A stretch of 61,778 bases of DNA. Source: a virus (Duplodnaviria > Heunggongvirae > Uroviricota > Caudoviricetes). Below, piece by piece: positions 5,652 to 47,961 of the stretch (the first letter of the stretch is position 1; each line of letters opens with the position of its first letter). The notes under the pieces were generated by a model that did no database searches, was not told the DNA's origin, and was given only the letters and a program-made list of their open reading frames with translations. The stretch lies in the IMG/VR virus record IMGVR_UViG_2778261381_000005; one strand, 5' to 3'. A program made the translations under genes and the position numbers.

Positions 5652-5696
5652 ATGCAAACTGACTGCGGCACGTTCCGCAGTCATATTTCATAGTCG

Positions 5697-7325: not shown

Positions 7326-7344
7326 GTGGACACCTTTGTCATTC

Positions 7345-7446
7345 AACCGCTGACAGCATACTTGATTTGCCGCTGACAGAATACCAAAAACAGTTGGCAG
7401 CATACGGTGAACCGCTGACAGACTATCAATTACCGCTGACAGCATA
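7345..7446. repeat. iteron array (5 copies) immediately upstream of rep start
   Basis: aaccgctgacagcatac, tgccgctgacagaatac, gttggcagcatac, aaccgctgacagactat, taccgctgacagcatac. Confidence 0.75.
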
Positions 7447-7494
7447 CATGAACATGACTTCAGACCAGTCGTGGCGCGGCTTACAGCGATCGGG

Positions 7495-7560
7495 GATCTT
7501 ATTTGATCTATATAAGGATCTATCTATGGATCTCTTTATTAGGATCTATCCTGTGGATAT
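7495..7560. promoter_or_regulatory. origin-like GATC cluster (5 GATC in about 52 bp) plus DnaA-box-like TGTGGATAT
   Basis: GGATCT-containing repeats at 7495, 7505, 7517, 7529, 7543; TGTGGATAT at 7552-7560 (8/9 to DnaA box). Confidence 0.5.
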
Positions 7561-31600: not shown

Positions 31601-31801
31601 CTGTTCCCGAACGTTGGCCAGCATCGCCGACTGAGATTTTACGGAAATAAATTCATAGCCCTGATTCCGCAGATCCTGAATCAGTTCACGTTCCAGGTCC
31701 GATTCGCTCTGGTAGCTGTCGCCTGTTTGCTCGGCTTTGATGTACTTATCAAGAACGATAAAGTTATTGGATTCAGCAATGGTGTGTGTCTGATGAGTCA
31801 T
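28685..31801 (-). CDS. hsdR: type I restriction enzyme R subunit (EcoR124-like, type IC)
   Basis: 1038 aa; helicase motifs TGSGKT, DECHRS, SRTNR; N-terminus resembles EcoR124I HsdR as I recall it. Confidence 0.9.
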
Positions 31802-31922
31802 AGCGCATCCTTTGTGCCGTCTGGCAAGGGCCGGAAGGGCTTTAAGGGCGACTTCCGGCGTGTAAAAAATAGTCTCTATATAGACCGGATGTTAAGGTGA
31901 TCCGGTCGGTAGCAATGGTCAA

Positions 31923-33178
<1,256 letters not shown>

Positions 33179-33182
<4 letters not shown>

Positions 33183-34741
33183 GCCTGTACCTCGCTACCT
33201 TCAATCTCAGCAACAATCGCATCAATATCTTTACGCAACTGGTCGATTTTGCTGACCGTGGTTTTCAGCTCAGCATTCAGCTCAGCGATATCGATAATTT
33301 CGCGAGTATCTTTCGCTTCCACATAGCTGCTCACCGACAGGTTATAGTCATTCGCGACAACAGTCTCAAACGCAACAGATTTCGCCAGATGAGCAACATC
33401 TTCCTTGCTGGCAAATACCTGCATAATCTGTTCGATATGAGCATCGGTCAGAATGTTGTTGTTAGTCTCTTTTTTGAACAGTTCGCTGGCATCAATAAAC
33501 TGAACTTTGGTATCCGTTTTATGTTTAGACAGCACCAGAATATTGACGGCAATAGTGGTGCCAAAGAACAGATTCGGTGCCAGTGAAATCACGGTTTCGA
33601 CATAGTTATTGTCGACCAGATACTGACGGATTTTCTGCTCCGCGCCGCCACGGTAAAAAATGCCTGGGAAGCAGACAATCGCAGCGCGACCTTTGGCCGA
33701 AAGATAGTTCAGCGCATGTAATACAAACGCAAAGTCAGCTTTGGATTTGGGGGCCAGAACGCCAGCCGGGGCAAAACGTTCATCGTTAATCAGCGTCGGG
33801 TCATCGCTGCCAATCCATTTCACCGAATACGGCGGGTTAGAAACGATGGCATCAAACGGTTTTTCATCTCTGAAGTGCGGCTCAGTCAGTGTATTACCCA
33901 GCTTGATATCAAACTTGTCGTAGTTGATGTTGTGCAAAAACATGTTCATACGCGCCAGGTTATAGGTCGTATGGTTGATTTCCTGACCAAAAAAACCTTC
34001 TTCGATGATATGGTCATCAAACTGTTTTTTCGCCTGCAACAACAGCGAACCGGAGCCTGCTGCCGGGTCGTAGATTTTGTTAACGTGGGTCTGCCCGTGC
34101 ATAGCCAGTTGTGCAATCAGCTTAGAGACGTGCTGCGGTGTAAAGAACTCGCCGCCGGACTTACCGGCATTCGCCGCATAGTTAGAAATCAGGAACTCAT
34201 AGGCGTCACCGAACAGGTCAATCTGATGTTCATGGAAGTCACCAAGTTTTAGCCCTTCAACCCCTTTCAGAACCGCAGCCAAGCGGGCATTTTTATCTTT
34301 AACGGTGTTACCCAGGCGGTTACTGGTGGTATCGAAATCAGCAAACAAACCTTTGATGTCAGCTTCTGAAGGATAACCGTAAGCAGAACTTTCGATAGCA
34401 ACGAAGATGCTGTTTAAATCTGCATTCAGTCTGTCATTAGTATTTGCTTTCGCAGCTACGTTGCAGAAAAGCTGACTGGGGTAGATGAAGTAGCCTTTAG
34501 TTTTGATGGCATCGTCTTTAATGTCATCAGTAATTACGCTGTCATCCAGTTTCGCATAACAGATACTGTCATCACCGGCTTCAATATAACTGGAAAAATT
34601 TTCGCTGATAAAACGGTAAAAAAGCGCGCCCAAAACGTACTGCTTAAAATCCCATCCATCGACTGAACCCCTGACATCGTTAGCAATTTGCCAGATCTGG
34701 CGATGAAGCTCTGCACGTTGTTGAATACTTGTCATTTTCAT
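33179..34741 (-). CDS. hsdM: type I restriction-modification methyltransferase subunit
   Basis: 520 aa; N6-adenine MTase motifs DPAAGSGS and NPPY; operon order hsdM-hsdS-hsdR. Confidence 0.9.
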
Positions 34742-35093
34742 CCACTTATTTCAGGTTTAAGTAATTGGATGTGATTCTACAGCAACTTGGATGCTTTAGC
34801 AGTTCGGACATTAGGTAACGAATGACCTAATTAGAGCTTTTTGGAAAAGCGGTATTGTCGGTGCGATTTTAGCTATGTCTGGGTGTGCGATGGTGCAATA
34901 CAATGACGGTGAAAAGGTTAGCATCCAGTTCGATGGCTGGTATTGGCTTGGATAGCCTGCCAAAAAACGCAGATAAAGCCTGTCAGCAATACGGAAAGTC
35001 TAAAGCTGTATATCTGCATAGCGCGAACGCTAACCCTCATCTTGCGCCTGGTACGGGTGTTCAGAATACCATCTGGAAATGTGAGCCTTAAAC

Positions 35094-35345
35094 ATGAGCA
35101 ACTGGAACATAGCAGCCAAAAGCCAGGAAGAAAGGAATAAAGTTAACGTTGACCTGGCTGCCAGGGGGGTTGCCTACAAAGAGCGATTGAACATACCCGT
35201 CATAGCGGAACAGGTAGCCCGTGAGCAACCTGAGAACCTGCGCACCTATTTCATGGAACGGCTACGGCACTACCGGCAGTTAAGCCTCCTGCTGCCAAAA
35301 GGAAACGATCCGGTATATCAGAAAGAAGATATAGCCAAAAAATAA
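35094..35345 (+). CDS. hypothetical protein
   Basis: ORF only; weak RBS. Confidence 0.3.
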
Positions 35346-35405
35346 CGCGCCACCAGACGAGCGCAAAGCATCGCGCTATTGCACACTTCAAGCATCTTTA
35401 ATGTA

Positions 35406-35425
35406 TACTGTATGGATAAACAGTA
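35406..35425 (+). promoter_or_regulatory. LexA (SOS) box
   Basis: TACTGTATGGATAAACAGTA fits CTGT-N8-ACAG; 18 nt upstream of umuD'-like ATG. Confidence 0.7.
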
Positions 35426-35443
35426 CTCTGAGGTGAAAACGCT

Positions 35444-35833
35444 ATGGGCTTCCCTTCTCCTGCGGCGGATTATGCTGAGAGCCGTATTTCTCTTGATCAG
35501 CAGATAATTAGACATCCTTCAGCGACCTACTTCATGAGGGCAGCTGATAGTCATCATCGTGAGGGAATATTACAGGGTGCATTGCTGGTGGTCGATTCCT
35601 CACTTACCCCGGTTGATGGTTCTCTGCTTGTATGCGCTCTGGATGGGGAATATCGCGTAAAAAGATACCGGAAGTACCCACGTCAGCATCTGGAGGATTT
35701 AAGAACCGGTAAGAAGGAAGCATTGCCAAAGGATGACGATGGATGCACGGGCAGCAATGCCGTGTTTGGTGTGATCACTCACATTATCAACGACGCAAGA
35801 AGTGGCGAGTTTGATGATTGTCCCGTGATGTAG
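35444..35833 (+). CDS. UmuD'-like protein (S24 LexA-family fold lacking the N-terminal arm)
   Basis: Starts M-GFPSPAADY, aligning from Gly25 of E. coli UmuD (recalled); SATYF, VFGVITHII conserved; in-frame stop 13 nt upstream. Confidence 0.6.
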   Translation: MGFPSPAADYAESRISLDQQIIRHPSATYFMRAADSHHREGILQGALLVVDSSLTPVDGSLLVCALDGEYRVKRYRKYPRQHLEDLRTGKKEALPKDDDGCTGSNAVFGVITHIINDARSGEFDDCPVM

Positions 35834-35845
35834 GAGAACTGATTA

Positions 35846-35869
35846 GGCGGTGCAATGCACCGCCTTTTA
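35846..35869 (+). terminator. rho-independent terminator
   Basis: GGCGGTGCA atg CACCGCC followed by TTTT. Confidence 0.6.
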
Positions 35870-36970
35870 TCACACTGCGCGGAATGCGATTTCGCCAGGT
35901 ATTACTTCACCTTGCCAATACATTTGGGCGGCAACGCGATCTGCGAGGTCACGATAAATAGCCGTAAATTCGCTATCTGGACGACTAATAACGGTTGGTG
36001 TTCCGTTATCCAGATCTTCACGAAGAGAGATATGAAGTGGCATTTGGCCTAACAACTGCGTGTTGTATTTCTCGGCCAGTTTCTGTGCGCCACCGGTGCC
36101 AAAAATTGGCTCGTGATGACCGCAGTTACTGCAAATATGCACACTCATGTTTTCGACGATACCCAGTACCGGCACTTCGACTTTTTCGAACATCACAATG
36201 CCTTTCTTCGCATCGATCAGCGCGATGTCTTGCGGCGTAGTTACCACAACCGCACCAGTTACAGGAATGTTCTGCGCCAGCGTCAACTGAATATCACCAG
36301 TGCCCGGCGGCATATCGAGAACGAGATAGTCCAGATCAGGCCATAGAGTTTCCTGCAACATCTGCATCAGCGCCTTGCTGGCCATCGGTCCACGCCACAC
36401 CATTGCATTGTCGTCGGTGACCAGATAACCAATAGAGTTGGTTGCCAGGCCATGAGACATGATAGGTGCCATGTGAGTACCGTCAGGTGAGGTTGGACGT
36501 TGGTTTTCCGCGCCCAGCATGGTTGGAATTGATGGACCATAGATATCGGCATCCAAAATACCAACTTTCGCACCTTCAGCAGCCAACGCCAGTGCCAGGT
36601 TTACCGCCGTGGAGGATTTACCCACGCCGCCCTTGCCTGAGCTGACGGCGATAATGTTCTTAACGCCATTAATGCCTGGTTGGTTTTTGACGCGCTTAAG
36701 CGTGGCAATGTTGTACGACAGCTTCCAGTCAATAGCCTTTGCGCCAGTGATACGGAGCAGATCACCACTACATTGCTCTTTCAGGTCTTCAAAAGGCTTA
36801 TTCCACACGAAAGGCATGATTAGTTCGACATGCAGTGTGTCATCCATCAACGCAACATGGTGTAACGCTTTAAGCGTAGTCAGGTTGTGTTTCAGGGTTG
36901 GGTGCTGAAAATTAGCCAGCGTACCGGCTACCATTGCTCTCAGGGCATCCGGCGATTTGGACTCGCTCAT
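35870..36970 (-). CDS. mrp: Mrp/ApbC Fe-S cluster carrier ATPase
   Basis: P-loop SGKGGVGKS, C-terminal CSNCGH; divergent from metG as in E. coli. Confidence 0.9.
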   Translation of the reverse strand: MSESKSPDALRAMVAGTLANFQHPTLKHNLTTLKALHHVALMDDTLHVELIMPFVWNKPFEDLKEQCSGDLLRITGAKAIDWKLSYNIATLKRVKNQPGINGVKNIIAVSSGKGGVGKSSTAVNLALALAAEGAKVGILDADIYGPSIPTMLGAENQRPTSPDGTHMAPIMSHGLATNSIGYLVTDDNAMVWRGPMASKALMQMLQETLWPDLDYLVLDMPPGTGDIQLTLAQNIPVTGAVVVTTPQDIALIDAKKGIVMFEKVEVPVLGIVENMSVHICSNCGHHEPIFGTGGAQKLAEKYNTQLLGQMPLHISLREDLDNGTPTVISRPDSEFTAIYRDLADRVAAQMYWQGEVIPGEIAFRAV

Positions 36971-37127
36971 CCCGTCTCCTTTATTTTAATTTGCGCAATT
37001 GTCGCCTTGTAGTGTACTCCAGCTACGACATTTAATCATTTATGAGAAATGCTGTTATCACATGGCAGACATAAGGCCATTTTGTTACTATCAAGCCCCT
37101 TTTCACTACAAAGAAGTAATGCCTACT

Positions 37128-39161
37128 ATGACCCAAGTCGCGAAGAAAATTCTGGTGACGTGCGCGCTGCCGTACGCTAACGGCTCAATCCACCTCGGCC
37201 ATATGCTGGAGCACATCCAGGCTGATGTCTGGGTTCGTTACCAGCGAATGCGCGGCCACGAGGTTAATTTCATCTGTGCCGACGATGCCCACGGTACGCC
37301 GATCATGCTGAAAGCACAGCAGCTTGGTATCACACCGGAGCAGATGATTGGCGAAATGAGTCAGGAACACCAGACTGATTTCGCAGGCTTTAACATCAGC
37401 TATGACAACTATCACTCGACGCACAGCGAAGAGAACCGCCAGCTGTCTGAGCTTATCTATACTCGCCTGAAAGAGAACGGTTTTATTAAAAACCGCACTA
37501 TCTCTCAGTTGTACGACCCGGAAAAAGGCATGTTCCTGCCGGATCGTTTTGTGAAAGGCACCTGCCCGAAATGTAAAGCGCCAGATCAATACGGCGATAA
37601 CTGTGAAGTATGCGGTGCGACTTACAGCCCGACTGAACTGATTGAACCGAAATCGGTGGTTTCTGGCGCTACCCCGGTAATGCGTGATTCCGAACACTTC
37701 TTCTTTGATCTGCCTTCTTTCAGCGAAATGTTGCAGGCATGGACCCGCAGCGGCGCGTTGCAGGAGCAGGTGGCGAACAAAATGCAGGAATGGTTTGAAT
37801 CCGGCCTGCAACAGTGGGATATCTCCCGAGATGCGCCTTACTTCGGTTTTGAAATTCCGAACGCGCCGGGCAAATATTTCTACGTCTGGCTGGACGCGCC
37901 GATTGGCTACATGGGTTCCTTCAAGAATCTGTGCGACAAGCGCGGCGATACCACCAGCTTCGATGAATACTGGAAGAAAGACTCCACCGCCGAGCTGTAC
38001 CACTTCATCGGTAAAGATATTGTTTACTTCCACAGCCTGTTCTGGCCTGCCATGCTGGAAGGCAGCAACTTCCGCAAGCCGACCAACCTGTTTGTTCACG
38101 GCTATGTGACGGTGAACGGCGCGAAGATGTCCAAGTCTCGCGGCACCTTTATTAAAGCCAGCACCTGGCTGAATCATTTTGACGCCGACAGCCTGCGTTA
38201 CTACTACACTGCGAAACTCTCTTCGCGCATTGATGATATCGATCTCAACCTGGAGGATTTCGTTCAGCGCGTGAATGCCGATATCGTGAACAAAGTGGTT
38301 AACCTGGCCTCCCGTAATGCAGGCTTTATCAACAAGCGTTTTGACGGCGTGCTGGCAAGCGAACTGGCTGACCCGCAACTGTACAAAACCTTTACTGATG
38401 CCGCTGAAGTGATTGGCGAAGCATGGGAAAGCCGCGAATTTGGTAAAGCTATCCGTGAAATCATGGCATTGGCTGACCTGGCTAACCGCTATGTCGATGA
38501 ACAGGCTCCGTGGGTGGTGGCGAAGCAGGAAGGACGCGATGCCGATCTGCAGGCGATTTGCTCTATGGGCATTAACCTGTTCCGCGTGCTGATGACGTAC
38601 CTGAAGCCGGTACTGCCGAAACTGACTGAACGTGCAGAAGCATTCCTGAATACAGAACTGACCTGGGATGGTATCCAGCAACCGCTGCTGGCGCACAAAG
38701 TTAATCCGTTCAAAGCACTGTATAACCGCATCGACATGAAGCAGGTTGAAGCACTGGTGGAAGCCTCTAAAGAAGAAGTGAAAGCCACTGCCGCGCCAGT
38801 TACTGGCCCGCTGGCAGACGATCCGATTCAGGAAACCATCACCTTTGATGACTTCGCCAAAGTTGACCTGCGCGTGGCGCTGATTGAAAACGCGGAGTTT
38901 GTTGAAGGCTCTGACAAACTGCTGCGTCTGACGCTGGATCTAGGTGGTGAAAAACGCAATGTCTTCTCAGGCATCCGTTCTGCTTATCCAGACCCACAGG
39001 CACTGATTGGTCGTCACACCATTATGGTGGCTAACCTGGCTCCGCGTAAAATGCGCTTCGGTATCTCCGAAGGTATGGTGATGGCTGCTGGCCCCGGTGG
39101 GAAAGATATCTTCCTGTTAAGCCCGGATGCTGGTGCTAAACCTGGCCACCAGGTTAAGTAA
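37128..39161 (+). CDS. metG: methionyl-tRNA synthetase
   Basis: HLGHMLEH (HIGH), KMSKS, zinc knuckle CPKC...CEVCG; ORF-track start at 36999 rejected in favour of ATG 37128 (MTQVAKKIL). Confidence 0.95.
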
Positions 39162-39183
39162 TTAAACAACCTCTCTTCGCAAT

Positions 39184-39208
39184 GCCCGGCAACACGCCGG
39201 GCATTTTC
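39184..39208 (+). terminator. rho-independent terminator of metG
   Basis: GCCCGGC aacac GCCGGGC followed by ATTTTCAT. Confidence 0.6.
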
Positions 39209-39293
39209 ATATAGACACAATCCCTTCTGATTTACACAGTACCTAAAACAATTTGTTTTCTGCCTTTTGTTGATGGAGATAATAAACCACATA

Positions 39294-39312
39294 AGAAAAC
39301 AACTTGTTTTGG
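39294..39312 (+). promoter_or_regulatory. motif 1 palindrome (second copy at 39243-39262)
   Basis: aagaaaacaacttgttttgg; first motif 1 after the host-type block. Confidence 0.45.
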
Positions 39313-39313
39313 A

Positions 39314-39622
39314 GTGGTTGAAATGTTGAACATTACCCAAGCCTACCAGGTGGCATTGATCAGCTCATCTCATACATCAGAGGAAGATGCTCGCCGATTC
39401 ATGATCGCAAGCAATGAGCTGGATTGGGTTTCGCAAATTGACGGCGGTTGTATTGTCCACGCCGGGTTACAGGATGATGTCTGGAAAGACGACTTGCGTC
39501 GATATGGTATATCCGAAGGCGCGATTGCTAACATTCAGAAAGTACTTGATGTAGGCTTTGACTCTGTACATTTTGATTGTGGTGCGCCGGTCGTTGAAGG
39601 GCTTGAGTGCTGGAACTGGTAA
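39314..39622 (+). CDS. hypothetical protein
   Basis: RBS ggag then ATG directly after motif 1. Confidence 0.5.
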   Translation: MVEMLNITQAYQVALISSSHTSEEDARRFMIASNELDWVSQIDGGCIVHAGLQDDVWKDDLRRYGISEGAIANIQKVLDVGFDSVHFDCGAPVVEGLECWNW

Positions 39623-39749
39623 ATCTGCAAACAGATTCAAACCGTTGATAATGGCGGTCACAATTTGATTCTTTTCTATAAGAATCCGTTGATCGCCACT
39701 ACTCCCCTTCCATACCCGCAATCACATCCTTAAATATCAATAAGTTATA

Positions 39750-40560
39750 GTTGTTTATACAATCAAGAAAACAACTGAATAACAGATCAACGAAACATCA
39801 ACGCTTTCATCCGATTTGGTCTAAAAAATTGACGTTTTCACACATCACTGCTTATACCCGTAATTCTACGCAGCAGACAGCGCCACAGCGTCCAATTTTC
39901 ACCACAGACGACCCAACACACTACCAACAAAAACACACGCTCAAAATCGTTCCCGTTGCGTTACACAACCATATAAACAACTTATTTTCAGGCATAACAA
40001 AACAACTAAATAACACACATGCCATTCCCCAAAACAACCAACCTCTTTATGGCAGGCTACCGAAAAGACCCACCTCTTCTCCCCAGGCTACCGGACAACC
40101 AACCTAACTTTCACAGGCAATCCGAAAACATTCATACGCGCGATACCCACGACACGCCATTACCCAAACAGCGAAGAAACACCTGAACCGCTGAAACCCC
40201 AACGAAGCCTGTAACCGCAAGGTTTCTCTCAATCCCAAAAGACACGAAACATAACAATCACGGGAAACGCCATTACCCAATACACGAATAACTACAAAAG
40301 CCTTTCACACACTCCAGACAAACAACTCAAACACAATAACGAAAGCAATCGCCCACCTGCCATTACTCCATACACGGAGAAGAACAATCACCAAAACGAC
40401 GAGAACACCCCATAGAAGAACCACCGCAAAACGAACGAAACCATTTACACCGACAGAGAGAACAACACGCCCAATTCACCAACAGAAATAGTCGCCGTAT
40501 AGAACATTCTGGAAGGAGTGAGCATTAACGCCTATAGAGAGGTTGAGACAGATAAAACAC
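39750..40560. repeat. non-coding region with strong C+A over G+T strand skew and dispersed repeats
   Basis: Repeats ACGCCATTACCCAA at 40154, 40269, 40355; CAGGCTACCG at 40040-40110; ORF-track ORFs here are low-complexity. Confidence 0.6.
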
Positions 40561-40679
40561 AACATGTATAGCGAAGAAGCCAGGTATGTATAAGTGGGGA
40601 GGGAAGGAGGGGTGTCGCCTCCTTTTTCGTATTTATTCAACTCCTGATTTTATCCCCCGTAACACCCCTACGGTCAGCC

Positions 40680-40860
40680 TTCGGTCCATACAGGGAAAAG
40701 GTTGCATCCCGCTACAGAAACGGCTGGGTTGCCTTCGGGGAACGGCTGGAGGTTTTCAGGGAAACGGTCGAGTTGCCTGTGTGGGTTTCGGGAAAAGGCT
40801 CGATGCCGGTTCAGGAACGGCGGCGTACCGGTATAGCGTGAGGGAGAGTTGCGGCTACCC
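40680..40860. repeat. degenerate tandem repeats with GGAAACGG core (about 6 copies, 22-30 bp period)
   Basis: ggaaaaggttgc, agaaacggctgg, ggaacggctgg, ggaaacggtcgag, ggaaaaggctcg, gaacggcggc. Confidence 0.55.
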
Positions 40861-41154
40861 ACCTGTAATGTGCGGGAAGAAGAGAGGCGCTCACGTGCAG
40901 GCGAACTTACTTACCGCTGGATTCCCTCTGAATGCCCAGCTACAGCGTAATTGTGCCAGACAGCCAACGGGTCACAATCGATTTCAGTAGGTTTTCGGGG
41001 AGATGATTATTCTGCCCACCAGCCACCTTCGGCCACTAAATCAGAATAATGTAAAAAGTGTTCTCGGTACTGAACCTGAAAACTCACTGCCAAAACCACA
41101 TTCACCGGAATAAAATCCTTTTTCGCCTGTGCGTTATTGCGATAATAACACCAT

Positions 41155-41176
41155 CAAGAAAACATGTTGTTTAAGG
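41155..41176 (+). promoter_or_regulatory. motif 1 palindrome with extended upstream box CGATAATnACACCAnCAAGAAAAC
   Basis: caagaaaacatgttgtttaagg; extended box shared with 43265 and 43755 copies. Confidence 0.45.
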
Positions 41177-41184
41177 ATTGCTTT

Positions 41185-41514
41185 ATGTTTGCACATATCG
41201 ACATCAACCAAATCAAGAAATTGACTCAAAAAGAGTTTGACCAGTTCTATGAGCTGGAAGGTTGGTCTTCCACTCTGATCAATTCGCGGTGGGTGCTTGA
41301 GCTGATGACTCGTGATGATGCACCTGCTTTGATGATTTGCGACATGGGTGAAGATGCTGACTTTATGGATATGAGCGAATTTTGTGTGGACACATACAAC
41401 CGCAGCCAGAAGTACTACTTCACATGCGATAGCGAAAATGACGTGATTTCTAAGGTCTATCTTCACCTCGTCCAGCATTGGGACGTTCAGGAGTTTCTTG
41501 AGGTATTCGCGTAA
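41185..41514 (+). CDS. hypothetical protein
   Basis: RBS aagga; ORF-track ATG at 41164 lies inside motif 1. Confidence 0.5.
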   Translation: MFAHIDINQIKKLTQKEFDQFYELEGWSSTLINSRWVLELMTRDDAPALMICDMGEDADFMDMSEFCVDTYNRSQKYYFTCDSENDVISKVYLHLVQHWDVQEFLEVFA

Positions 41515-41582
41515 TCCCAACCAAAGCCAGCATTGCTGGCTTAATTTCTCTATAGCCGCAGGGAAGAACCTGCATATCGATC

Positions 41583-41978
41583 ATGCACCTGATCATTATG
41601 CTTTGTAGCCGTTTTCTTACTGGTATTATTTACGCCATTGAGAAAACAAGTTGTTTACGGAGTTGTGATGAAAAAATCATTGGTTCTTGGTCTGGACAAA
41701 GACCAGAAGAGAAAGAGAAGCCTGCGCTGGTTGCTCAATTAACTTTGCTGGACATCGTTGCCAATGGAACCTCTATTCGTCTGTTCCGTGAAACAGCGGT
41801 GTCTTTCGATAAAAACACCTTTACTCGTTATGTAATGAATGTTCGTCGCCAGCGTGGAAAAGGCTGGGTGGCATTTCAAAGAATGTGGCCGGAACATCAG
41901 CTCGAACTGGCCTTGATGGAAGTTAACCGCGTGGCCCAGCAAGAGATTCAGAGAGCATCAGTGATGGCAATAGCCTGA
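41583..41978 (+). CDS. hypothetical protein; start uncertain, possible frameshifted gene
   Basis: Motif 1 and RBS point to ATG 41668 in +1 frame, which stops after 24 codons; see findings. Confidence 0.3.
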   Translation: MHLIIMLCSRFLTGIIYAIEKTSCLRSCDEKIIGSWSGQRPEEKEKPALVAQLTLLDIVANGTSIRLFRETAVSFDKNTFTRYVMNVRRQRGKGWVAFQRMWPEHQLELALMEVNRVAQQEIQRASVMAIA

Positions 41979-42012
41979 TAATGTGCAAGTGGTAATTAGT
42001 CGACAGTACGAC

Positions 42013-42040
42013 AGCCCCGCCATCCTTACGGGGCTTTTTT
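42013..42040 (+). terminator. rho-independent terminator
   Basis: GCCCCGC catcctta CGGGGC followed by TTTTTT. Confidence 0.65.
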
Positions 42041-42104
42041 GTATTGTAAGTACATACTTACGATCATAGAATATAAAAATAACCAATACACTACGGAGAG
42101 TGAA

Positions 42105-42500
42105 ATGACCATTAAACGCGAAAAACTGACAGTTGATGTTTACTATGCCTCTGAAACCGCCGAAGGTAAGAATGTGGCAAAAATCACCGTTGTTACGTAC
42201 AACACCGAAACTGGCGCCGAAGTACAGGCCAGTACGATCGTGCGTAAAGGTGATGACTCCGACGGCGAGTACGCGACTCAATACCAGTCCATTCTCGATG
42301 CAACTGACCCGCTGCTGCTGAAAATCGAGAGCTACTTCCGCCAGGTTGATGAAGAGGTGTTTGAAACCATGATGAATATGGTTAACACCGTATTCGCCTC
42401 CAACCTGAATACCAACACTACCTGGATTGGTCAGTACGGCCTGCGCATTACCTCTGGCATTCCTGCCGACACCTTAATCCCTGAAAGCGTATTCGCTTAA
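42105..42500 (+). CDS. hypothetical protein
   Basis: RBS ggagag before ATG at 42105. Confidence 0.5.
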   Translation: MTIKREKLTVDVYYASETAEGKNVAKITVVTYNTETGAEVQASTIVRKGDDSDGEYATQYQSILDATDPLLLKIESYFRQVDEEVFETMMNMVNTVFASNLNTNTTWIGQYGLRITSGIPADTLIPESVFA

Positions 42501-42511
42501 TCCTCTTTAAA

Positions 42512-42537
42512 TGGCGCGTAAACCGCGCCATTTTATT
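42512..42537 (+). terminator. rho-independent terminator
   Basis: ATGGCGCG taaac CGCGCCAT followed by TTTATT. Confidence 0.55.
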
Positions 42538-42617
42538 AAGCCCGATAACAATTTGTTTTCTGCCTTATCTGATTTGTGAAAATGATTTCACTGAAGCAAC
42601 TTAATAAGGAAACCATC

Positions 42618-42992
42618 ATGGGACTTGATATCTATATCGAGACACAGCCTAAAAACGATCTGAATAACGAGGCATCCAGAAAGCAGGTTGCTTACTTCCG
42701 TAAGTTCAATGCGCTCGTTGGGTGGATGGAGCGCAACGTAGGTGAAGTCGAAAATTGTGAGCTTTTAGAATTAACGATGAATGACATTTGTTTTCTGAAG
42801 GCTCATTTGATGCACATAAACGAAAGTAATTGCGAAGAGTACTTGCCTACCCGGGAAGGTTTTTTCTTCGGCAGTCAGGAGTACGATGAAGGTTACTGGC
42901 ATGATGTGGGGGAGTTGAAAGAGCTTGTGGAAGATCTGATTAAGAACCACGACTTTCACAATAACAGACTGACCTTCTGCGCCTGGTGGTAA
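42618..42992 (+). CDS. hypothetical protein
   Basis: RBS aagga before ATG at 42618; motif 1 at 42544-42562. Confidence 0.5.
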   Translation: MGLDIYIETQPKNDLNNEASRKQVAYFRKFNALVGWMERNVGEVENCELLELTMNDICFLKAHLMHINESNCEEYLPTREGFFFGSQEYDEGYWHDVGELKELVEDLIKNHDFHNNRLTFCAWW

Positions 42993-43143
42993 ATATGGGC
43001 GATTTCAAGAAACGCCTGAAGGAAAGAGCCGAGATGGTCAGAAAGCAAAACGCCTCTTCTGTCATCAGATACGCAAGGCAGTTTAGTCGCAACAACAAAT
43101 CAGTTGAGGAAAAGATCCTTAGCGTAATCGGGCGATAATTATT

Positions 43144-43167
43144 AAGGCCACCAGCATTGGTGGTCTT
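43144..43167 (+). terminator. terminator hairpin, copy 1 of duplicated element
   Basis: AAGGCCACCA gcat TGGTGGTCTT; near-identical copy at 43613-43640. Confidence 0.5.
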
Positions 43168-43321
43168 AAATGACTTTTAATAACCGAAGGTTAGTTTGAA
43201 ACCTGGCTATCAACTTCCAGAACCTTTCTTGTGTATTCAGCCTGTATTAACTTCTTTTATGCCTTATCTACACTGCGATAATTACACCAACAAGAAAACA
43301 ACATGTTTACGCAGTGAGGAT

Positions 43322-43609
43322 ATGCTCATGACTGATTTCACCATTACCCCTAAAGCACAAAATGTATTTCTTGAATCATGGCTGGACTTGCCGGAAACAG
43401 AACAGCAAGAAATGGATCATGTGGATTATGACGAGCAGGTAAGCACGCGATTCTTCCACTTTGAGGGATGCGTTTACGACATTGCCGACTTCATGCGAGA
43501 TGACCGCTTCCCTGAATGGCACGCAAGCTATCCACTAAACGCCTTTGCCATGCTGATGATCCGTGTGGATGATTCAGGGGATACCATCGACATCGGTCTG
43601 CTCCACTAA
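43322..43609 (+). CDS. hypothetical acidic protein
   Basis: RBS gagga; motif 1 at 43290-43310. Confidence 0.5.
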   Translation: MLMTDFTITPKAQNVFLESWLDLPETEQQEMDHVDYDEQVSTRFFHFEGCVYDIADFMRDDRFPEWHASYPLNAFAMLMIRVDDSGDTIDIGLLH

Positions 43610-43612
43610 AGA

Positions 43613-43640
43613 TTAAGGCCACCAATGCTGGTGGCCTTAA
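43613..43640 (+). terminator. terminator hairpin, copy 2
   Basis: TTAAGGCCACCA atgc TGGTGGCCTTAA. Confidence 0.5.
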
Positions 43641-43813
43641 ATGACCATCCTGTTTCCCGCAGGCTAAAAACACCAACCTCTTACCTCCAGGCAACCGACA
43701 AACCCACCTGTTCCCGTCCGGCTACCGCAACTTTCCACTTTGACGCCTTATTCGTACAACGATAATTAACACCAACAAGAAAACAATTTGTTATTTACGA
43801 TAAGGAATTAATC

Positions 43814-44296
43814 ATGAATTTTATCGCTACTGTAAACGCACCCGCACATGGCAATATCGCTGTAACGTTCTCTGACATTGAAAAACGAGTACTTGGTGCA
43901 TGGCGCGACAATGAGACGGTAGAACTGTCAGCACAAGAAAAATGCATTATTGCACGCGACATCATTGGCAATCGTCGTTACTCGCGGGTATTTGAGAAAG
44001 CATATGTGGTAAATTCTGGATTCGGAACGTTCGTCTTTCCGGTGCGCTCCGGGCGATTCTGCCAGTCCAAGCTGATTGAGTTCGCTACGCAGATTTCTGT
44101 CTGGATTAAAACTCAATCGTCGTTCAAATTTTCCGACGATGAAGCAGTATCGCAGGGGATGCGGATCGCCAACAATGCGATTAAATGCAAAAACATTACG
44201 TATACCGCTGGCGTTGATACATGGAAACTGTTTTGCGCTAACTTTATGCTGAATGTATACGCAAGCAACCGCATCCACATCCTTGATGGCGTGTAA
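43814..44296 (+). CDS. hypothetical protein
   Basis: RBS aagga; motif 1 at 43785-43806. Confidence 0.55.
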   Translation: MNFIATVNAPAHGNIAVTFSDIEKRVLGAWRDNETVELSAQEKCIIARDIIGNRRYSRVFEKAYVVNSGFGTFVFPVRSGRFCQSKLIEFATQISVWIKTQSSFKFSDDEAVSQGMRIANNAIKCKNITYTAGVDTWKLFCANFMLNVYASNRIHILDGV

Positions 44297-44837
44297 CTGA
44301 GAAGAGGGCCAGAAACGGCCCTTTCTCTATAGCCACCAGCTGCCGCAGGGAAATTTTCAGAAACGGCGAGGAACGTATTCATGAGCCGACGGGAAACGGC
44401 CAGGATTTTTTCGGGAAACGGCTGCATTCGCCTTTATGTAGAAAAAAACATCGGGAAGCTGGTGGAATCCAACCAGCGGTTGTCGGACAGGCGAGCGGGG
44501 AAAATTATGATGACTTTCGTCGCCTGAGACATCCAGATTTCTTTCGTAGCATAATCACATACGTGATTAAGTGGTGTGATTATGTGAAAAATCACGCGCA
44601 CATAATACGCGAGCGGATACGGAACAAAACAAAATGCCGATCCGCGCCGACAAATAAACGCGGATCACATAGCAAGACTAAAAGCCAATGATTAACCATA
44701 CGCTATAGCGCAATATAACGCGTTTTAAGCGCGTTAATGTGTTAAGTAATGGGTATGTACTGGTAAGGATATAAAAGCGCGTTTATGGCGTTATTTTGGC
44801 GCTTATTTTTATGTTGTTGGAGTGAGTTAAAGACAAT

Positions 44838-44912
44838 AAAAAACGCGCCATCAATGGCGCGTTATTGTGGAAGTATTGGAAACGAAAAAAGCGCCCATAG
44901 TGGGCGCTCGAT
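44838..44912 (-). terminator. tandem minus-strand terminators
   Basis: AACGCGCCA tcaa TGGCGCGTT and AGCGCCCA tagt GGGCGCT, each followed by T-run on the minus strand. Confidence 0.55.
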
Positions 44913-44913
44913 T

Positions 44914-45144
44914 TTATTTGTGTAAACTGATTTTAAATCCCATTTCTACAAACGCTTTTAACATTAAAAATATATCAGCGTCGTTCACGTCTGCTTTTTT
45001 TCGCTCCTGGTCGCTCAATAAATCAATTTTACGCGTTGTTTCATCGATAAACTCGACTGCGCGCCCAGCGTAACCAGCGATCCCAGCGATGCGATTAACA
45101 TAATATTCGTTATGGACGTTAACGCCAGCGATAAGAACAAACAT
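44914..45144 (-). CDS. hypothetical protein
   Basis: Strong RBS aaggag; last gene of three-gene minus-strand operon. Confidence 0.5.
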   Translation of the reverse strand: MFVLIAGVNVHNEYYVNRIAGIAGYAGRAVEFIDETTRKIDLLSDQERKKADVNDADIFLMLKAFVEMGFKISLHK

Positions 45145-45164
45145 GATTAAGCTCCTTAAAAAAA

Positions 45165-45368
45165 TTAAATAGAATTTTGAAGTTTTCCGATTAATGCGCT
45201 TAAACGTAAGTATTCACGTTTGCGCTTGCAATCTCGCTTGCTGTTAAGCAAATCAGAAAACGTAAAATTTAATTGGTCGCGTTGCGCGATTAAATCATCG
45301 ATTAATTCTAGTTTATAAGCGCGATACTTTGCGCGATATTCCGCGCGGATCTTGTCATAGCTGACCAT
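45165..45368 (-). CDS. hypothetical basic protein
   Basis: RBS aaggag after intercistronic hairpin AGCGCCCACTATGGGCGCT. Confidence 0.45.
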   Translation of the reverse strand: MVSYDKIRAEYRAKYRAYKLELIDDLIAQRDQLNFTFSDLLNSKRDCKRKREYLRLSALIGKLQNSI

Positions 45369-45416
45369 TTTCAAAGCTCCTTTAAAGCGCCCATAGTGGG
45401 CGCTTGATTCCATTAA

Positions 45417-46067
45417 TTACGCTTTGAAAGCATCAGCTAAATAATTGTAGAAATCATTTTTAATGAAGCGATATTGCTGAGTACCAGCTTTCGCGCTCCC
45501 AGCTCCTTTGACTTTTTCAACAAGTCCAAGACGTTCGCAAAGATTGATCAACTGGTTGGCTTGAGTATAACCAGCGTCCAATTTAATTTCACACGCTTTT
45601 TTAGCTTCATTCATTAAATCGAAAACAGCGCCATTAGTGAACGTGTCGATCTCGTCGTTAATCATATCGATTAAAGCGAATACACGAGATCCAGACATAT
45701 CAGCGATGGAATAAACGCATTTACCAGATTTAATTGATTTAACCAGATAAACCAGTTTTTCCAGAGAATAACTATTAGTCATTGCATCACGGAAAAATAC
45801 TTCTGGCGCTTGTTTGCTTGCTTTAATCGCATAGTAGAAAACAGAGCATAATTTTTCGTCTTCTACTGCGTTTACGACGTTGTTGATGAAGTAAGCAAGT
45901 TTAGTGGTCGCAGCTTGCATATTTGCTTTGTCTGCTTTAGTGTGCGTACCATTTTTATAATGTTCGTTATATGTTTGAGTTGCCAGATCTGCTTTTTCGC
46001 GCAGTTCATCGGATACAATGGAAGCAGCTTCAATGATGGATTTTTTAGAAATGATAATGTTAGCCAT
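45417..46067 (-). CDS. hypothetical protein with highly-expressed-gene codon usage
   Basis: Codons dominated by GCT, GGT, CGT, AAA, GAA, ATC, TTC; AT-rich promoter region upstream. Confidence 0.55.
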   Translation of the reverse strand: MANIIISKKSIIEAASIVSDELREKADLATQTYNEHYKNGTHTKADKANMQAATTKLAYFINNVVNAVEDEKLCSVFYYAIKASKQAPEVFFRDAMTNSYSLEKLVYLVKSIKSGKCVYSIADMSGSRVFALIDMINDEIDTFTNGAVFDLMNEAKKACEIKLDAGYTQANQLINLCERLGLVEKVKGAGSAKAGTQQYRFIKNDFYNYLADAFKA

Positions 46068-46350
46068 GATAATTTTTCCTTATGTAAATTTAAAATTTAT
46101 TGTCGTTAGCGTCTTCGCTTTCGACGAGTTCAATTATCGATATGCGAAAAAAGATTGCAAGTGTTTTTTTTAAATTTTTTGCAGGGATGAAAGTCCTAGA
46201 AATAAAAGCGAGATCGTCGAAGGTGTTCCCTAAATAAATAATTGATTGCGGCTTTAGACCTTATATATATTTAGGTTATTTGATTTGTAGATATAAAGAA
46301 GTGATGTGAAAAATAATAACCGGACTTAGCCGGTTATTAACCTTATAGAT

Positions 46351-46659
46351 TTATTGAACAGACTCTACAGCCTTACGATTGGTGTCAAATAGCGCATCAA
46401 CGAACTGTGCCGATGACTCGCTAGATTCGCAATCCAACATTGCCCGTTCTTCATTTGCCACTTTCTTACACAGTTCCACATTCTCGCCTATCGCTTTTCC
46501 TGCTTTTACGGCTGCCGAAAATTGATACATGCAAACTGATACATTCTGAGACGTTGAGCACACGTCATTCATCAGCGACTGAATGACAGGCTTATAGTCC
46601 ATTGCATTTGCCGCAACTGAGCAAAGTAAAAATAATGGTGGTAACAATATCGATTTCAT
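46351..46659 (-). CDS. hypothetical secreted protein
   Basis: Signal peptide MKSILLPPLFLLCSVAANA; bidirectional hairpin after stop. Confidence 0.5.
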   Translation of the reverse strand: MKSILLPPLFLLCSVAANAMDYKPVIQSLMNDVCSTSQNVSVCMYQFSAAVKAGKAIGENVELCKKVANEERAMLDCESSESSAQFVDALFDTNRKAVESVQ

Positions 46660-46662
46660 AAC

Positions 46663-47187
46663 TCAAAAAGGCAAAATTCGTTCAACCCAATCGAACAAAA
46701 CAACTATTTTTCTACCGTTCTCGACACGTAGTGTAACCTGACAAGCATCTGCGCCTGCTGACACCCCCTCAATTTCACGGCCATCCGCCATGTACACCCT
46801 TATAGATTTGTTTGCTTTGTAGGCTTGGTTGCAAATTGCAAAAAAATCGCGGCGTGATGGCCGATTATCGACATAATCAGGGTGAACTGTTAGTCGACCT
46901 TTGAAATCGTGAGCGATACTGTCAACCACACCTGATTCAATTGTACTAATGCGTTCAAGTGGGAGCCTTATACGATTTTCTTTGTCAAAAGGGGCTGGGC
47001 AAAGGTCAACTTTGTTACGAGATGGCATGAGGCCATAAACGTACATGCAAAACGCCTGGCCATCTTCGAGAGTGACCCTTACAGGAATTTGTTCTCTGCG
47101 CCAGAACATCAGTAGTTTTTCAACGTTAGTGTAATCTCGCGGCCAGAGTTCAGCTTGGATACCGTAGGTAATATCTTTGGTTGTCAT
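46663..47187 (-). CDS. hypothetical protein
   Basis: ATGA overlap with upstream lipoprotein stop; start trimmed from ORF-track 47265. Confidence 0.45.
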   Translation of the reverse strand: MTTKDITYGIQAELWPRDYTNVEKLLMFWRREQIPVRVTLEDGQAFCMYVYGLMPSRNKVDLCPAPFDKENRIRLPLERISTIESGVVDSIAHDFKGRLTVHPDYVDNRPSRRDFFAICNQAYKANKSIRVYMADGREIEGVSAGADACQVTLRVENGRKIVVLFDWVERILPF

Positions 47188-47191
47188 GTCA

Positions 47192-47656
47192 TCACAGAGT
47201 TGTTGGCAGAATGTCGATGTCACCAGAATTGCTGGTAAACACCCTGAACGCTTTTGTGTCTCCATTCTTCAGAGTCGTTTCTCGCTCTTGACGAGCGGGG
47301 TTTAGAGCACATAAACCTGCACCTTCAAGAGATGCACCCACAATTAATTCTCCGGCATTTAAATGGAAAGTCGCTTTTTCGCCTGTAGCCAGTTTTGCGA
47401 CAGTTTCGCCGTTGATGAAAATGGAAGCATCACATCCAGCTCCTACAAAACCTGTGTCTCTCATTACCACCAACGTAGCTGGCGCTGCGCTTTGATACTT
47501 TAACACTTTGGCCTGCGGTGCTGGTTTGGCGTCATGGATTGATATTGGGTGTGATTGGCACGCGGCAAGCATCAACACTGGTAACGTTAGTAGAGGGAGA
47601 AGCGAGTATTTCATGATAGTTTTAGAACAGAAAGTGAACAGTATGGGAGACTTCAT
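47192..47656 (-). CDS. putative lipoprotein
   Basis: RBS agggaga; lipobox-like LAAC after hydrophobic stretch. Confidence 0.45.
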   Translation of the reverse strand: MKSPILFTFCSKTIMKYSLLPLLTLPVLMLAACQSHPISIHDAKPAPQAKVLKYQSAAPATLVVMRDTGFVGAGCDASIFINGETVAKLATGEKATFHLNAGELIVGASLEGAGLCALNPARQERETTLKNGDTKAFRVFTSNSGDIDILPTTL

Positions 47657-47682: not shown

Positions 47683-47961
47683 TTATTTTAATCTGCTTAA
47701 TAGCGTTTCGAGATCTTCCTTTGTCATATTAGAGTTCTCATAGATACGCATGATTTTCTCACGAGTCTTAGCGGAAGCCCCGACAGAAGATATAACCTTG
47801 TCAAAGTCGGCCATTGTCAATTGTTCCAGAATGGTATTTATGACTTCAGCCTTAGACATTTTGATATTTTTTTCTTTTAGTTTCACTTGAAACTTTCCAA
47901 GTTTGTCATTGGCCTTATCAGACAATGCTACCTGACAGTAAGTTGTTTTCTTTTCACTCAT
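47683..47961 (-). CDS. hypothetical protein
   Basis: ORF downstream of helicase gene. Confidence 0.45.
   Translation of the reverse strand: MSEKKTTYCQVALSDKANDKLGKFQVKLKEKNIKMSKAEVINTILEQLTMADFDKVISSVGASAKTREKIMRIYENSNMTKEDLETLLSRLK

What the first reader, a model, noticed from the sequence alone, without database searches (positions are those of the whole stretch)
44306..44470. GGAAACGG and CAGGCTACCG repeat families recur at two separated loci
The GGAAACGG-core repeats of 40680-40860 reappear at 44345-44450 (cagaaacggcgagg, cgggaaacggccagg, cgggaaacggctgca). The CAGGCTACCG/CCACCT family of 40040-40110 reappears at 43650-43740. A TTCTCTATAGCC box follows the terminators at 41548 and 44324 and occurs inverted at 40548. 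The pattern suggests binding-site arrays for one DNA-binding protein that bracket the small-gene cluster.
Basis: seen in the sequence. Interest (0 to 1): 0.5.

Follow-up and report, generated by a model that had tools for sequence, protein, structure and literature searches.

The report
Conserved repeat arrays in a phage-plasmid
Two families of short repeats recur at two places in the unannotated early region of a common enterobacterial phage-plasmid (the pLF82/SSU5/pHCM2 type); they are real and conserved, and one family resembles the RNA target of a flagellin repressor that the element itself encodes, but nothing here shows what binds them.

Summary
The window is a pLF82/Cyrano/SSU5-type phage-plasmid.

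**Confirmed.**
- Family A is a 30-nt unit, ACCNACCT-N7-9-CAGGCTACCG. It occurs 3x at 40031-40127 and 3x at 43638-43731.
- Family G has the core GGRAAMGG. It occurs 6x at 40694-40820 and 3x at 44359-44421, plus one copy in the loop of the gene-6 terminator.
- Both families exceed chance and sit on one strand.
- Both keep their positions in relatives from E. coli, Citrobacter, Salmonella (pHCM2), Klebsiella, Enterobacter and Cronobacter, and in a relative whose gene-6 protein is 51% identical. Yersinia pMT1 keeps only the right-hand locus.
- G spacing of 22/31 nt is kept while the spacers diverge.

**Not confirmed.** The TTCTCTATAGCC box is no more frequent than chance and is not conserved.

**Layout.** The arrays do not bracket the gene cluster. 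Each locus reads A array, about 0.7 kb payload, hairpin, then G array.

**What they are not.** They are not the RepA iterons (ACCGCTGACAGCATA, 5693-7446). No repeat array lies next to the par operon, and no Rfam family matches.

**Best lead (confidence 0.35).** The element encodes an FljA-family protein (46663-47265) that models as two Hfq-like domains. One G unit shares 12 identical bases with the E. coli fliC 5'UTR, the known FljA target.

**Rival.** The G arrays could be double-stranded DNA iterons. The same core and 22-bp period form origin iterons in lambdoid O genes, but no O-like protein is encoded here.

The parts
40031..40127 (+). A1 array: three 30/31-nt units, ACCNACCT-N8-CAGGCTACCG (box A at 40037, 40068 and 40098)
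   Evidence: conserved in L004-L007 and, in diverged form, in L251
43638..43731 (+). A2 array: three units (box A at 43644, 43672 and 43702). It starts directly after the hairpin that follows gene 5 and ends just before the promoter cassette of gene 6. The third unit is degenerate outside the E. coli lineage.
40693..40821 (+). G1 array: six GGRAAMGG cores at 40694, 40716, 40738, 40760, 40791 and 40813 (spacing 22, 22, 22, 31, 22)
44348..44422 (+). G2 array: cores at 44359, 44392 and 44414 (spacing 33, 22), plus a partial GGGAAATT at 44348. The unit at 44382-44401 carries TGAGCCGACGGG, identical to 12 bases of the E. coli fliC leader.
44306..44323 (+). Terminator hairpin of gene 6 (GGGCC-AGAAAC-GGCCC, then TTTCTCT). 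Its loop is itself a G unit. The stem differs between lineages (GGGCC/GGCCC against GGGGC/GCCCC) and stays paired.
40601..40627 (+). Hairpin followed by a T run, between the AC-rich region and G1
39700..40500 (+). AC-rich noncoding stretch (39870-40500: A 40%, C 33%, G 13%, T 14%). It contains A1 and three GCCATTAC repeats. A conserved promoter-like TTGACG-17-TTATAC lies at about 39828-39866. PGAP annotates no gene between 39623 and 41184.
43814..44296 (+). Gene 6: a 160-aa protein (phrog_1641) that lies between A2 and G2. It is found only in this family and has no fold match.
46663..47265 (-). FljA-family gene (PF03614, E 2.5e-84). The start is probably at 47187. The model is two tandem Sm/Hfq-like domains. 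This is the candidate binder of the G units.
41546..41557 (+). TTCTCTATAGCC box, the tail of a terminator. A second exact copy is at 44323-44334. It is specific to one lineage and not above chance.
44333..44340 (-). Chi site (GCTGGTGG on the - strand) between the gene-6 terminator and G2. It is present in eight of nine relatives aligned (pMT1 differs by one base). A Chi site on the + strand lies at 44458-44465.

Best explanation
The two repeat families are conserved cis-regulatory recognition arrays in the early-gene region of an SSU5/pLF82-type phage-plasmid. They are laid out twice as one module: A array, about 0.7 kb payload, hairpin, G array. At the left locus the payload is an AC-rich noncoding stretch. 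At the right locus it is the 160-aa gene 6.

**G units (inferred).** I take the G units (GGRAAMGG in a GC-rich context) to be recognition elements for the element's own FljA-family protein, a tandem Sm/Hfq-like regulator. They would be read on the + strand transcript, as FljA reads the fliC 5'UTR. Bound protein at the end of each module would control read-through, stability or use of the RNAs that enter the early genes, or would buffer the free pool of the regulator.

**A units.** They carry a second, unidentified specificity.

**What is shown.** The arrays, their conservation, their spacing and their strand bias are shown. So are the FljA-family membership and Hfq-like model of the protein, and the sequence match to fliC leaders.

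**What is inferred.** That this protein binds the G units, that binding is on RNA, and what the regulatory outcome is.
For: 1. **The arrays are real and under constraint.**
   - Strand bias is 12 to 2, and six cores fall within 140 nt against at most 3 in shuffles.
   - The spacing pattern 22-22-22-31-22 (G1) and 33/34-22 (G2) recurs over 36 and 39 distinct sequences. Of 138 G1 spacings, 112 are exactly 22 nt.
   - Cores are better conserved than spacers, 0.91 against 0.80.
   - The GGGAAACGGC cores survive in L251, where gene 6 is only 51% identical.
2. **A candidate binder is encoded nearby.** A PF03614 (FljA) gene lies 2.2-2.8 kb to the right in every relative checked, including pMT1, L251 and L252.
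4. **One G unit matches the known FljA target.**
   - The E. coli fliC leader reads TTGAGCCGACGGGTGGAAACCC.
   - G2 unit 2 reads ATGAGCCGACGGGAAACGGCC.
   - The shared 12-mer is the best hit of the leader in the whole window.
5. **The match tracks lineage.**
   - Enterobacter-type fliC leaders read GAAGCCGAAGGGTGGAAACCC.
   - The non-E. coli phage-plasmids read GAACCGAAGGGAAACGGCC.
   - The first and ninth bases of the 12-mer differ between lineages in the same way in the fliC leaders and in the phage-plasmids.
   - The Salmonella/Citrobacter leader carries GAGAAAC in a hairpin loop. The gene-6 terminator loop is UGGAAAC or AGAAAC.
6. **An internal target is plausible.** Klebsiella relatives keep both the gene and the arrays. 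By my own knowledge Klebsiella pneumoniae lacks flagella.
7. **Expression fits.** The regulator is expressed in LF82 lysogens. The G1 interval is transcribed weakly, above the level of the AC-rich interval (PMC9928086 S1 table).
Against: - **The fliC match is weak across the whole window.** Its E-value is 0.22, and 40% of shuffled windows share a 12-mer or longer with the leader somewhere. It counts only as a directed test on about 250 nt. In the other lineages the shared run is just 8 nt plus GAAAC.
- **The location does not fit FljA's known mode.** The G arrays lie downstream of hairpins or terminators, not in a 5'UTR next to a ribosome-binding site.
- **There is no RNA-structure support.** The arrays fold no better than shuffles (z -0.28, -0.55 and +0.71). 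Apart from the terminator, the consensus fold shows almost no covariation.
- **Exact 22- and 31-nt spacing suits helical phasing on duplex DNA.** The same core and period serve as DNA iterons in lambdoid phages.
- **The A arrays are left unexplained.**
- **No binding data exist.**
Confidence: 0.35

Rival explanations
1. The G arrays are double-stranded DNA iterons for a DNA-binding protein not yet identified. They could be a lytic replication origin with an auxiliary site (as in P4 ori/crr or lambda ori), or a replication or transcription control locus. Proteins would sit on one face of the helix.
For: - Spacings of 22 nt (about two helical turns) and 31-34 nt (about three turns) are kept without indels while spacers diverge by 20-40%.
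- A scan of viral contigs for GGAAACGG-N14-GGAAACGG found lambdoid phages in which GCCGAATGGAAACGGC repeats, at a 22-nt period, lie inside a replication-initiation O-like gene. G2 unit 2 matches that iteron at 14 of 16 positions.
- The element carries its own T4-like replisome genes: gp32, a DnaB-like helicase, primase, a UvsW-like helicase and DnaE. A lytic origin must therefore exist somewhere.
- G2 lies in a convergent gap behind terminators on both strands.
Against: - No homologue of the O-like iteron-binding domain is encoded (tblastn, hmmsearch, hhalign).
- The plasmid's RepA iterons are a different sequence.
- No AT-rich unwinding element or DnaA-box cluster adjoins either array.
- In the divergent relative L251 the spacings are 28, 24 and 34 nt, which are not in helical phase.
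- The scan pattern itself forced the core and the period, so finding some phage family with them is partly selection.
Confidence: 0.28
2. The arrays are a dispersed centromere for the element's small ParA/ParB-like partition system, comparable to the dispersed centromere sites of N15.
For: The ParA-like operon (CP091393 80654-81681) has no repeat array beside it. Its centromere is therefore unlocated.
Against: - The arrays lie tens of kb from the par operon.
- pMT1 uses a different, P1/P7-type ParA/ParB pair yet keeps A2 and G2.
- A 22-30-nt period differs from the 7-11-bp contiguous repeats that I recall for type Ib centromeres (own knowledge).
Confidence: 0.07
3. The arrays help end or insulate transcription. 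The C-rich, G-poor A arrays and the AC-rich tract would act as Rho loading sites. The G arrays behind the hairpins would be roadblocks or back-up terminators that stop read-through from cargo genes into the early genes.
For: - The + strand is strongly G-poor and C-rich over 39.7-40.5 kb and over A2.
- A2 follows a hairpin that has no U run on the + strand.
- Both G arrays follow hairpins.
- The region separates variable cargo (metG, a type I restriction-modification system) from conserved early genes.
Against: Generic Rho loading sites do not need conserved bipartite boxes or exact repeat spacing. Nothing here tests Rho.
Confidence: 0.15
4. The arrays are relics of an old segmental duplication and have no present function.
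For: The two loci share order and size. A-to-G distance is 663 nt at the left locus and 710-721 nt at the right, and similar in the relatives.
Against: - The motifs are kept while the sequence between them is unrelated at the two loci.
- Cores and spacing persist across genera, and down to a relative whose gene-6 protein is 51% identical.
Confidence: 0.05

Closest known systems
The FljA operator in the fliC 5'UTR (Salmonella flagellar phase variation; the flk and fljA-z66 systems of E. coli and S. Typhi)
   Same: - An FljA-family protein (PF03614) is encoded by the element.
- A G unit shares 12 of 12 bases with the E. coli fliC leader, or 8 bases plus GAAAC with Enterobacter-type leaders.
- GRGAAAC sits in or beside GC-rich hairpins in both.
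   Different: - Here the motif is multiplied (6 + 3 + 1 copies).
- It lies after hairpins at the ends of transcription units, not next to a ribosome-binding site.
- It is kept in non-flagellated Klebsiella hosts.
- Binding is untested.
Origin iterons of lambdoid phages inside the O gene (here the phrog_9773 O-like lineage, for example Klebsiella phage ST405-OXA48phi1.2)
   Same: - Same core, GGAAACGGC.
- Same 22-nt period.
- Four to six direct copies.
- GCCG...CGGC arms in some units.
   Different: - The arrays are intergenic, not inside an initiator gene.
- No O-like protein is encoded.
- No AT-rich region follows them.
- There are two arrays 3.6 kb apart.
Plasmid iterons with a separate control locus (P1 oriR/incA, RepFIB)
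   Same: Two separated arrays of direct repeats at about two helical turns.
   Different: The element's true RepA iterons are ACCGCTGACAGCATA and flank repA at 5693-7446. The G and A units are unrelated to them and lie about 33 kb away.
Multi-site RNA targets of ring-shaped or sponge-titrated RNA-binding proteins (TRAP-binding GAG repeats; CsrB/RsmZ)
   Same: Repeated short purine-rich motifs on one strand, and an encoded Sm-like protein that could bind them.
   Different: - No Rfam family matches.
- Motifs are 22 nt apart rather than 2-5 nt.
- No promoter for a dedicated small RNA was identified.

Membership tests
RepA (IncFIB/P1-type) plasmid iterons | Sequence matches the replicon's own iteron, and the arrays flank the rep gene | tested here: not met
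   repA lies at 6231-7445(-). At least 15 ACCGCTGACAGCATA iterons lie at 5693-6230 and 7340-7446. The G and A units share no sequence with them.
Lambdoid ori iterons | Four or more direct repeats at a period of about 22 bp | tested here: met
Lambdoid ori iterons | A cognate O-type initiator is encoded, usually around the iterons | tested here: not met
   tblastn, hmmsearch and hhalign of the O-like N-terminal domain against all reading frames of the element found nothing. The best hhalign probability was 7.7%.
Lambdoid ori iterons | An adjacent AT-rich unwinding region | tested here: not met
   GC content is 0.54-0.60 across G1. Only a 14-nt AT-rich patch follows G2.
FljA-type operator | An FljA-family (PF03614) protein is present | tested here: met
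   E 2.5e-84 over the full profile length; syntenic in all relatives
FljA-type operator | Sequence resembles the fliC leader | tested here: inconclusive
   The 12-mer identity is the best hit in the window, but its window-wide E-value is 0.22. In other lineages only 8 nt plus GAAAC are shared.
FljA-type operator | Lies in a 5'UTR next to the ribosome-binding site | tested here: not met
   G1 and G2 lie after hairpins, 340 nt or more from the next start codon
FljA-type operator | Specific binding by the protein | not testable with these tools
   Needs gel-shift or CLIP experiments
Partition centromere | Repeat array adjacent to, or bound by the ParB of, the element's par operon | tested here: not met
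   The arrays are remote from the par operon. pMT1, with a different par system, keeps A2 and G2. Binding was not tested.
Known RNA families (CsrB/Rsm-type sponges and others) | Match to an Rfam covariance model | tested here: not met
   In 38500-46500 at E up to 1, only four sub-threshold chance hits, all outside the arrays

The most novel reading that the evidence does not exclude
The G arrays are copies of a lambdoid phage origin without its initiator. The phage-plasmid would carry the iteron set (GCCGAA-TGGAAAC-GGC type, 22-bp period) recognised by the O protein of a lineage of Klebsiella and E. coli lambdoid phages. It would use the set to titrate that initiator as a decoy against competing phages, or to be replicated in trans when such a phage is active.
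Probability: 0.05. Interest if true: 0.8.

Novelty: new variant of a known kind. Interest (0 to 1): 0.5.

Why it matters
This phage-plasmid family is common and clinically relevant. It includes pLF82, pHCM2 of S. Typhi, pMT1 of Y. pestis and many plasmids carrying CTX-M. The G2 segment occurs in 239 of 5,426 complete E. coli genomes, always on plasmids.

Its 1.5-kb conserved noncoding region and early-gene cluster carry no functional annotation. No paper in the searched library connects them with FljA.

If the G arrays are targets of the encoded tandem-Hfq-like FljA homologue, three things follow:
- A phage regulator that may also silence host flagellin would have a defined internal regulon.
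- The FljA recognition motif would be defined by ten natural copies.
- The lysogeny-to-lysis control of these elements would become directly testable.

If instead the arrays are DNA iterons, they mark the unknown lytic origin or a copy-control locus.

Tried and rejected
- **RepA iterons.** Rejected: the sequence and the location differ.
- **Coding repeats.** The reading frames over the arrays (40586-40990, 39751-40107, 44113-44427-) translate to implausible Cys/Arg-rich products. PGAP annotates no gene across 39623-41184.
- **Rfam.** No family matches.
- **Pairing between A and G arrays on RNA.** Duplex energies are not better than shuffles, except marginally for A2-G1 (fraction 0.045).
- **A stable RNA structure in the arrays.** Fold z-scores lie between -0.55 and +0.71. 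Covariation appears only in the terminator stem.
- **Gene 6 protein as a DNA binder.**
  - The model is confident (pLDDT 84).
  - No Pfam family matches.
- **An O-like initiator in the element.** Not found by three methods.
- **A centromere next to the par operon.** No array is there.
- **A-unit scan of viral contigs.** The full bipartite unit turned up in only 13 of the scanned loci, with the same 30-31-nt spacing as here; I did not confirm that those contigs are SSU5-like.
- **Similarity of G2 to the E. coli chromosome.** None: all 241 matching places are on plasmids.
- **The original FljA papers.** They could not be read here, so the exact FljA contact site in fliC mRNA rests on my memory of those papers.
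- **The chromosomal FljA-like homologue P0126.** It turned out to sit in a degenerate copy of the same element, not beside a flagellin gene.

Full report
**Identity of the window.** Region 39600-44700 is 98-99.9% identical to Escherichia phage Cyrano (= pLF82) and to many E. coli plasmids. In all, 727 PLSDB plasmids match it, from Escherichia, Klebsiella, Enterobacter, Yersinia, Salmonella and Citrobacter. This is an SSU5/pHCM2-type phage-plasmid. In the 99.7%-identical plasmid CP091393, PGAP annotates nothing between 39623 and 41184. That 1.5-kb noncoding block is nevertheless conserved at 67-72% identity in 839 plasmids, almost always with no annotated feature.

**Check of the observation.** Two of the three claims hold.

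*Family A* is a bipartite unit of about 30 nt, ACCNACCT-N7-9-CAGGCTACCG.
- There are three tandem copies at 40031-40127 and three at 43638-43731.
- The unit occurs nowhere else in the window or in the remaining 49 kb of the plasmid, and never in shuffles.

*Family G* has the core GGRAAMGG.
- Six copies lie at 40694-40820 and three at 44359-44421. One more sits in the loop of the gene-6 terminator, at 44311.
- Twelve cores lie on the + strand and two on the - strand.
- Six fall within 140 nt, against at most three in 200 shuffles.

*The TTCTCTATAGCC box* is exact twice, but it is not more frequent than chance and is missing from other lineages.

**Layout.** The arrays do not bracket the small-gene cluster. 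Each locus reads A array, about 0.7 kb, hairpin, G array.
- Left locus: A1, then an AC-rich noncoding tract, then the hairpin at 40601-40627, then G1.
- Right locus: A2, then the promoter and the 160-aa gene 6, then the terminator at 44306-44323, then G2.

This order and size recur in E. coli pLAO18, Citrobacter, pHCM2, Klebsiella, Enterobacter and Cronobacter, and in a relative whose gene 6 is 51% identical. pMT1 keeps only the right-hand module.

**Constraint on the G arrays.**
- Across 36 distinct G1 and 39 distinct G2 sequences, the spacing patterns 22-22-22-31-22 and 33/34-22 dominate. Of 138 G1 spacings, 112 are exactly 22 nt.
- Cores are better conserved than spacers, 0.91 against 0.80.
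- In the most divergent relative the GGGAAACGGC cores persist, but the spacings become 28, 24 and 34 nt.

A-unit spacing varies from 28 to 31 nt.

**What the arrays are not.**
- *RepA iterons.* The plasmid replicon is at 6231-7445(-). It has at least 15 ACCGCTGACAGCATA iterons and a GATC-rich origin, unrelated to A or G.
- *Coding sequence.* The reading frames that overlap the arrays are not credible genes.
- *A known RNA family.* No Rfam family matches.
- *A structured RNA.* The arrays are not unusually structured as RNA, and only the terminator stem shows a compensatory change.
- *A pairing partner for each other.* A and G arrays are not complementary to each other.
- *A par-adjacent centromere.* The ParA-like operon has no adjacent repeat array. 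However, pMT1 has a different par system and keeps A2 and G2, which argues against a centromere role.
- *Sites for the gene-6 protein.* That protein has a confident model but no fold or family match.

**Lead 1: the FljA link.**
- The gene at 46663-47265(-), annotated as a transcriptional regulator, is a full-length member of Pfam PF03614, the repressor of phase-1 flagellin, FljA (E 2.5e-84).
- It is syntenic in every relative.
- FljA-type proteins block fliC expression after transcription (PMC2652032). By my own knowledge of Yamamoto and Kutsukake 2006 and Aldridge et al. 2006, they do so by binding the fliC 5'UTR.
- The E. coli K-12 fliC leader contains TTGAGCCGACGGGTGGAAACCC. G2 unit 2 reads ATGAGCCGACGGGAAACGGCC.
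- The shared 12-mer is the best match of the leader anywhere in the window. A 12-mer somewhere in 61.8 kb is not rare, though: E is 0.22, and 40% of shuffles reach it. The match has weight only as a directed test on the roughly 250 nt of G arrays.
- Leaders from 20 enterobacterial species fall into several types, three of which bear on the arrays:
  - E. coli, Shigella and Kluyvera read GAGCCGACGGG.
  - Enterobacter, Leclercia, Lelliottia, Buttiauxella and Cedecea read AAGCCGAAGGG.
  - Salmonella and Citrobacter carry GAGAAAC in a hairpin loop.
- The non-E. coli phage-plasmids read GAACCGAAGGG. Two of the three positions that differ from the E. coli phage-plasmid change in the same way as in the leaders.
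- The gene-6 terminator loop is UGGAAAC or AGAAAC.
- Klebsiella relatives keep the gene and the arrays although the host has no flagellin target (own knowledge). This points to a target inside the element.
- In LF82 lysogens the regulator is expressed. The G1 interval is weakly transcribed, while the AC-rich interval is at background.

**Lead 2: the iteron analogy.**
- A scan of viral contigs for two GGAAACGG cores 22 nt apart recovered SSU5-like contigs. It also recovered a group of lambdoid phages in which GCCGAATGGAAACGGC repeats, at a 22-nt period, lie inside a replication-initiation O-like gene (phrog_9773). That protein is 86.8% identical to one in Klebsiella phage ST405-OXA48phi1.2.
- So the same core and period do work as origin iterons on duplex DNA in phages of the same hosts.
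- Against membership, the phage-plasmid has no detectable O-like domain and no AT-rich region beside the arrays. In addition, the scan pattern forced the similarity.

**Verdict.**
- I commit, at 0.35, to G units being recognition elements of the FljA/Hfq-like regulator acting on + strand RNA. The rivals are duplex iterons for an unknown protein (0.28), a role in transcription insulation or Rho loading (0.15), a centromere (0.07) and relics of duplication (0.05).
- The A arrays have no candidate binder.
- All mechanistic steps beyond sequence, conservation and fold are inference. The experiments listed under next steps would decide between the explanations.

Noticed in passing
window 5693-6230, 7340-7446 and 7480-7560: The plasmid replicon. 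At least 15 direct ACCGCTGACAGCATA iterons flank repA (6231-7445, - strand). A GATC-rich, AT-rich stretch follows them. The arrangement resembles P1/RepFIB.
   Followed up: yes
window 46663-47265 (-): An FljA-family (PF03614) protein whose model is two tandem Hfq-like domains. It may repress host flagellin as well as genes of the element. No paper in the searched library mentions FljA for SSU5-type phage-plasmids.
   Followed up: partly
window 4103, 25764, 26493, 39246, 39297, 41160, 41644, 43296, 52922; L008 18607, 21537, 48865: A 13-nt palindrome, AAACAAnTTGTTT (usually AAGAAAACAAnTTGTTTA), occurs 9 times in the window against about 0.6 expected, and 3 more times in the rest of the plasmid.

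At most sites I checked it lies 24-53 nt upstream of a start codon, between an extended -10 box (TGCGATAAT type) and the ribosome-binding site. The genes it precedes include the ParA-like, DnaB-like and DNA-binding (phrog_867) genes. It looks like a genome-wide operator or 5'UTR element.
   Followed up: partly
window 39700-40500: An AC-rich noncoding tract of about 800 nt (G 13%, T 14% on the + strand). It has a conserved promoter-like TTGACG-17-TTATAC at about 39828-39866 and three to five GCCATTAC(Y)CMATACACGGAGAAGAAC repeats. It is conserved across genera, and part of it also matches phage SSU5. It is at background expression in LF82 lysogens.
   Followed up: partly
window-wide; cluster at 41016-44465: The Chi sequence GCTGGTGG occurs 16 times against 1.4 expected.
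- Five copies lie within 3.5 kb of the small-gene cluster.
- Two are built into the 12-bp hairpins at 43142-43169 and 43613-43640.
- G2 is flanked by Chi sites that face outward (44333-44340 on the - strand, 44458-44465 on the + strand). The left one is present in eight of nine relatives aligned.
   Followed up: partly
window 41668-41978: Small gene 2 is split by a frameshift in this window, with a stop at 41740-41742. CP091393 has an intact 103-aa gene that is one base longer.
   Followed up: partly
window 47683-47961 (-): A 92-aa protein just downstream of the UvsW-like helicase gene. Its sequence pattern looks like a ribbon-helix-helix DNA-binding protein (my reading of the sequence only). 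It is another candidate binder for the repeats or for the palindrome.
   Followed up: no
window 28685-39161: Variable cargo lies immediately upstream of the conserved noncoding block: a type I restriction-modification system, a pol III theta-like gene, a umuD-like gene, apbC/mrp and a full-length metG. Relatives carry different cargo at the same place.
   Followed up: no
L251 6730-6810: The divergent relative has a run of GCTAAA(C/T)GG / TATAACGC repeats, at a period of about 11 nt, in the convergent gap to the right of G2. TATAACGC-like words also occur at window 44700-44760.
   Followed up: no
L016 4600-4745 (and L020, L023, L026, L035, L043, L097 among others): Lambdoid phages carry GCCGAATGGAAACGGC iterons at a 22-nt period inside an O-like replication gene. 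There the repeats also encode PNGNG-type peptide repeats.
   Followed up: partly
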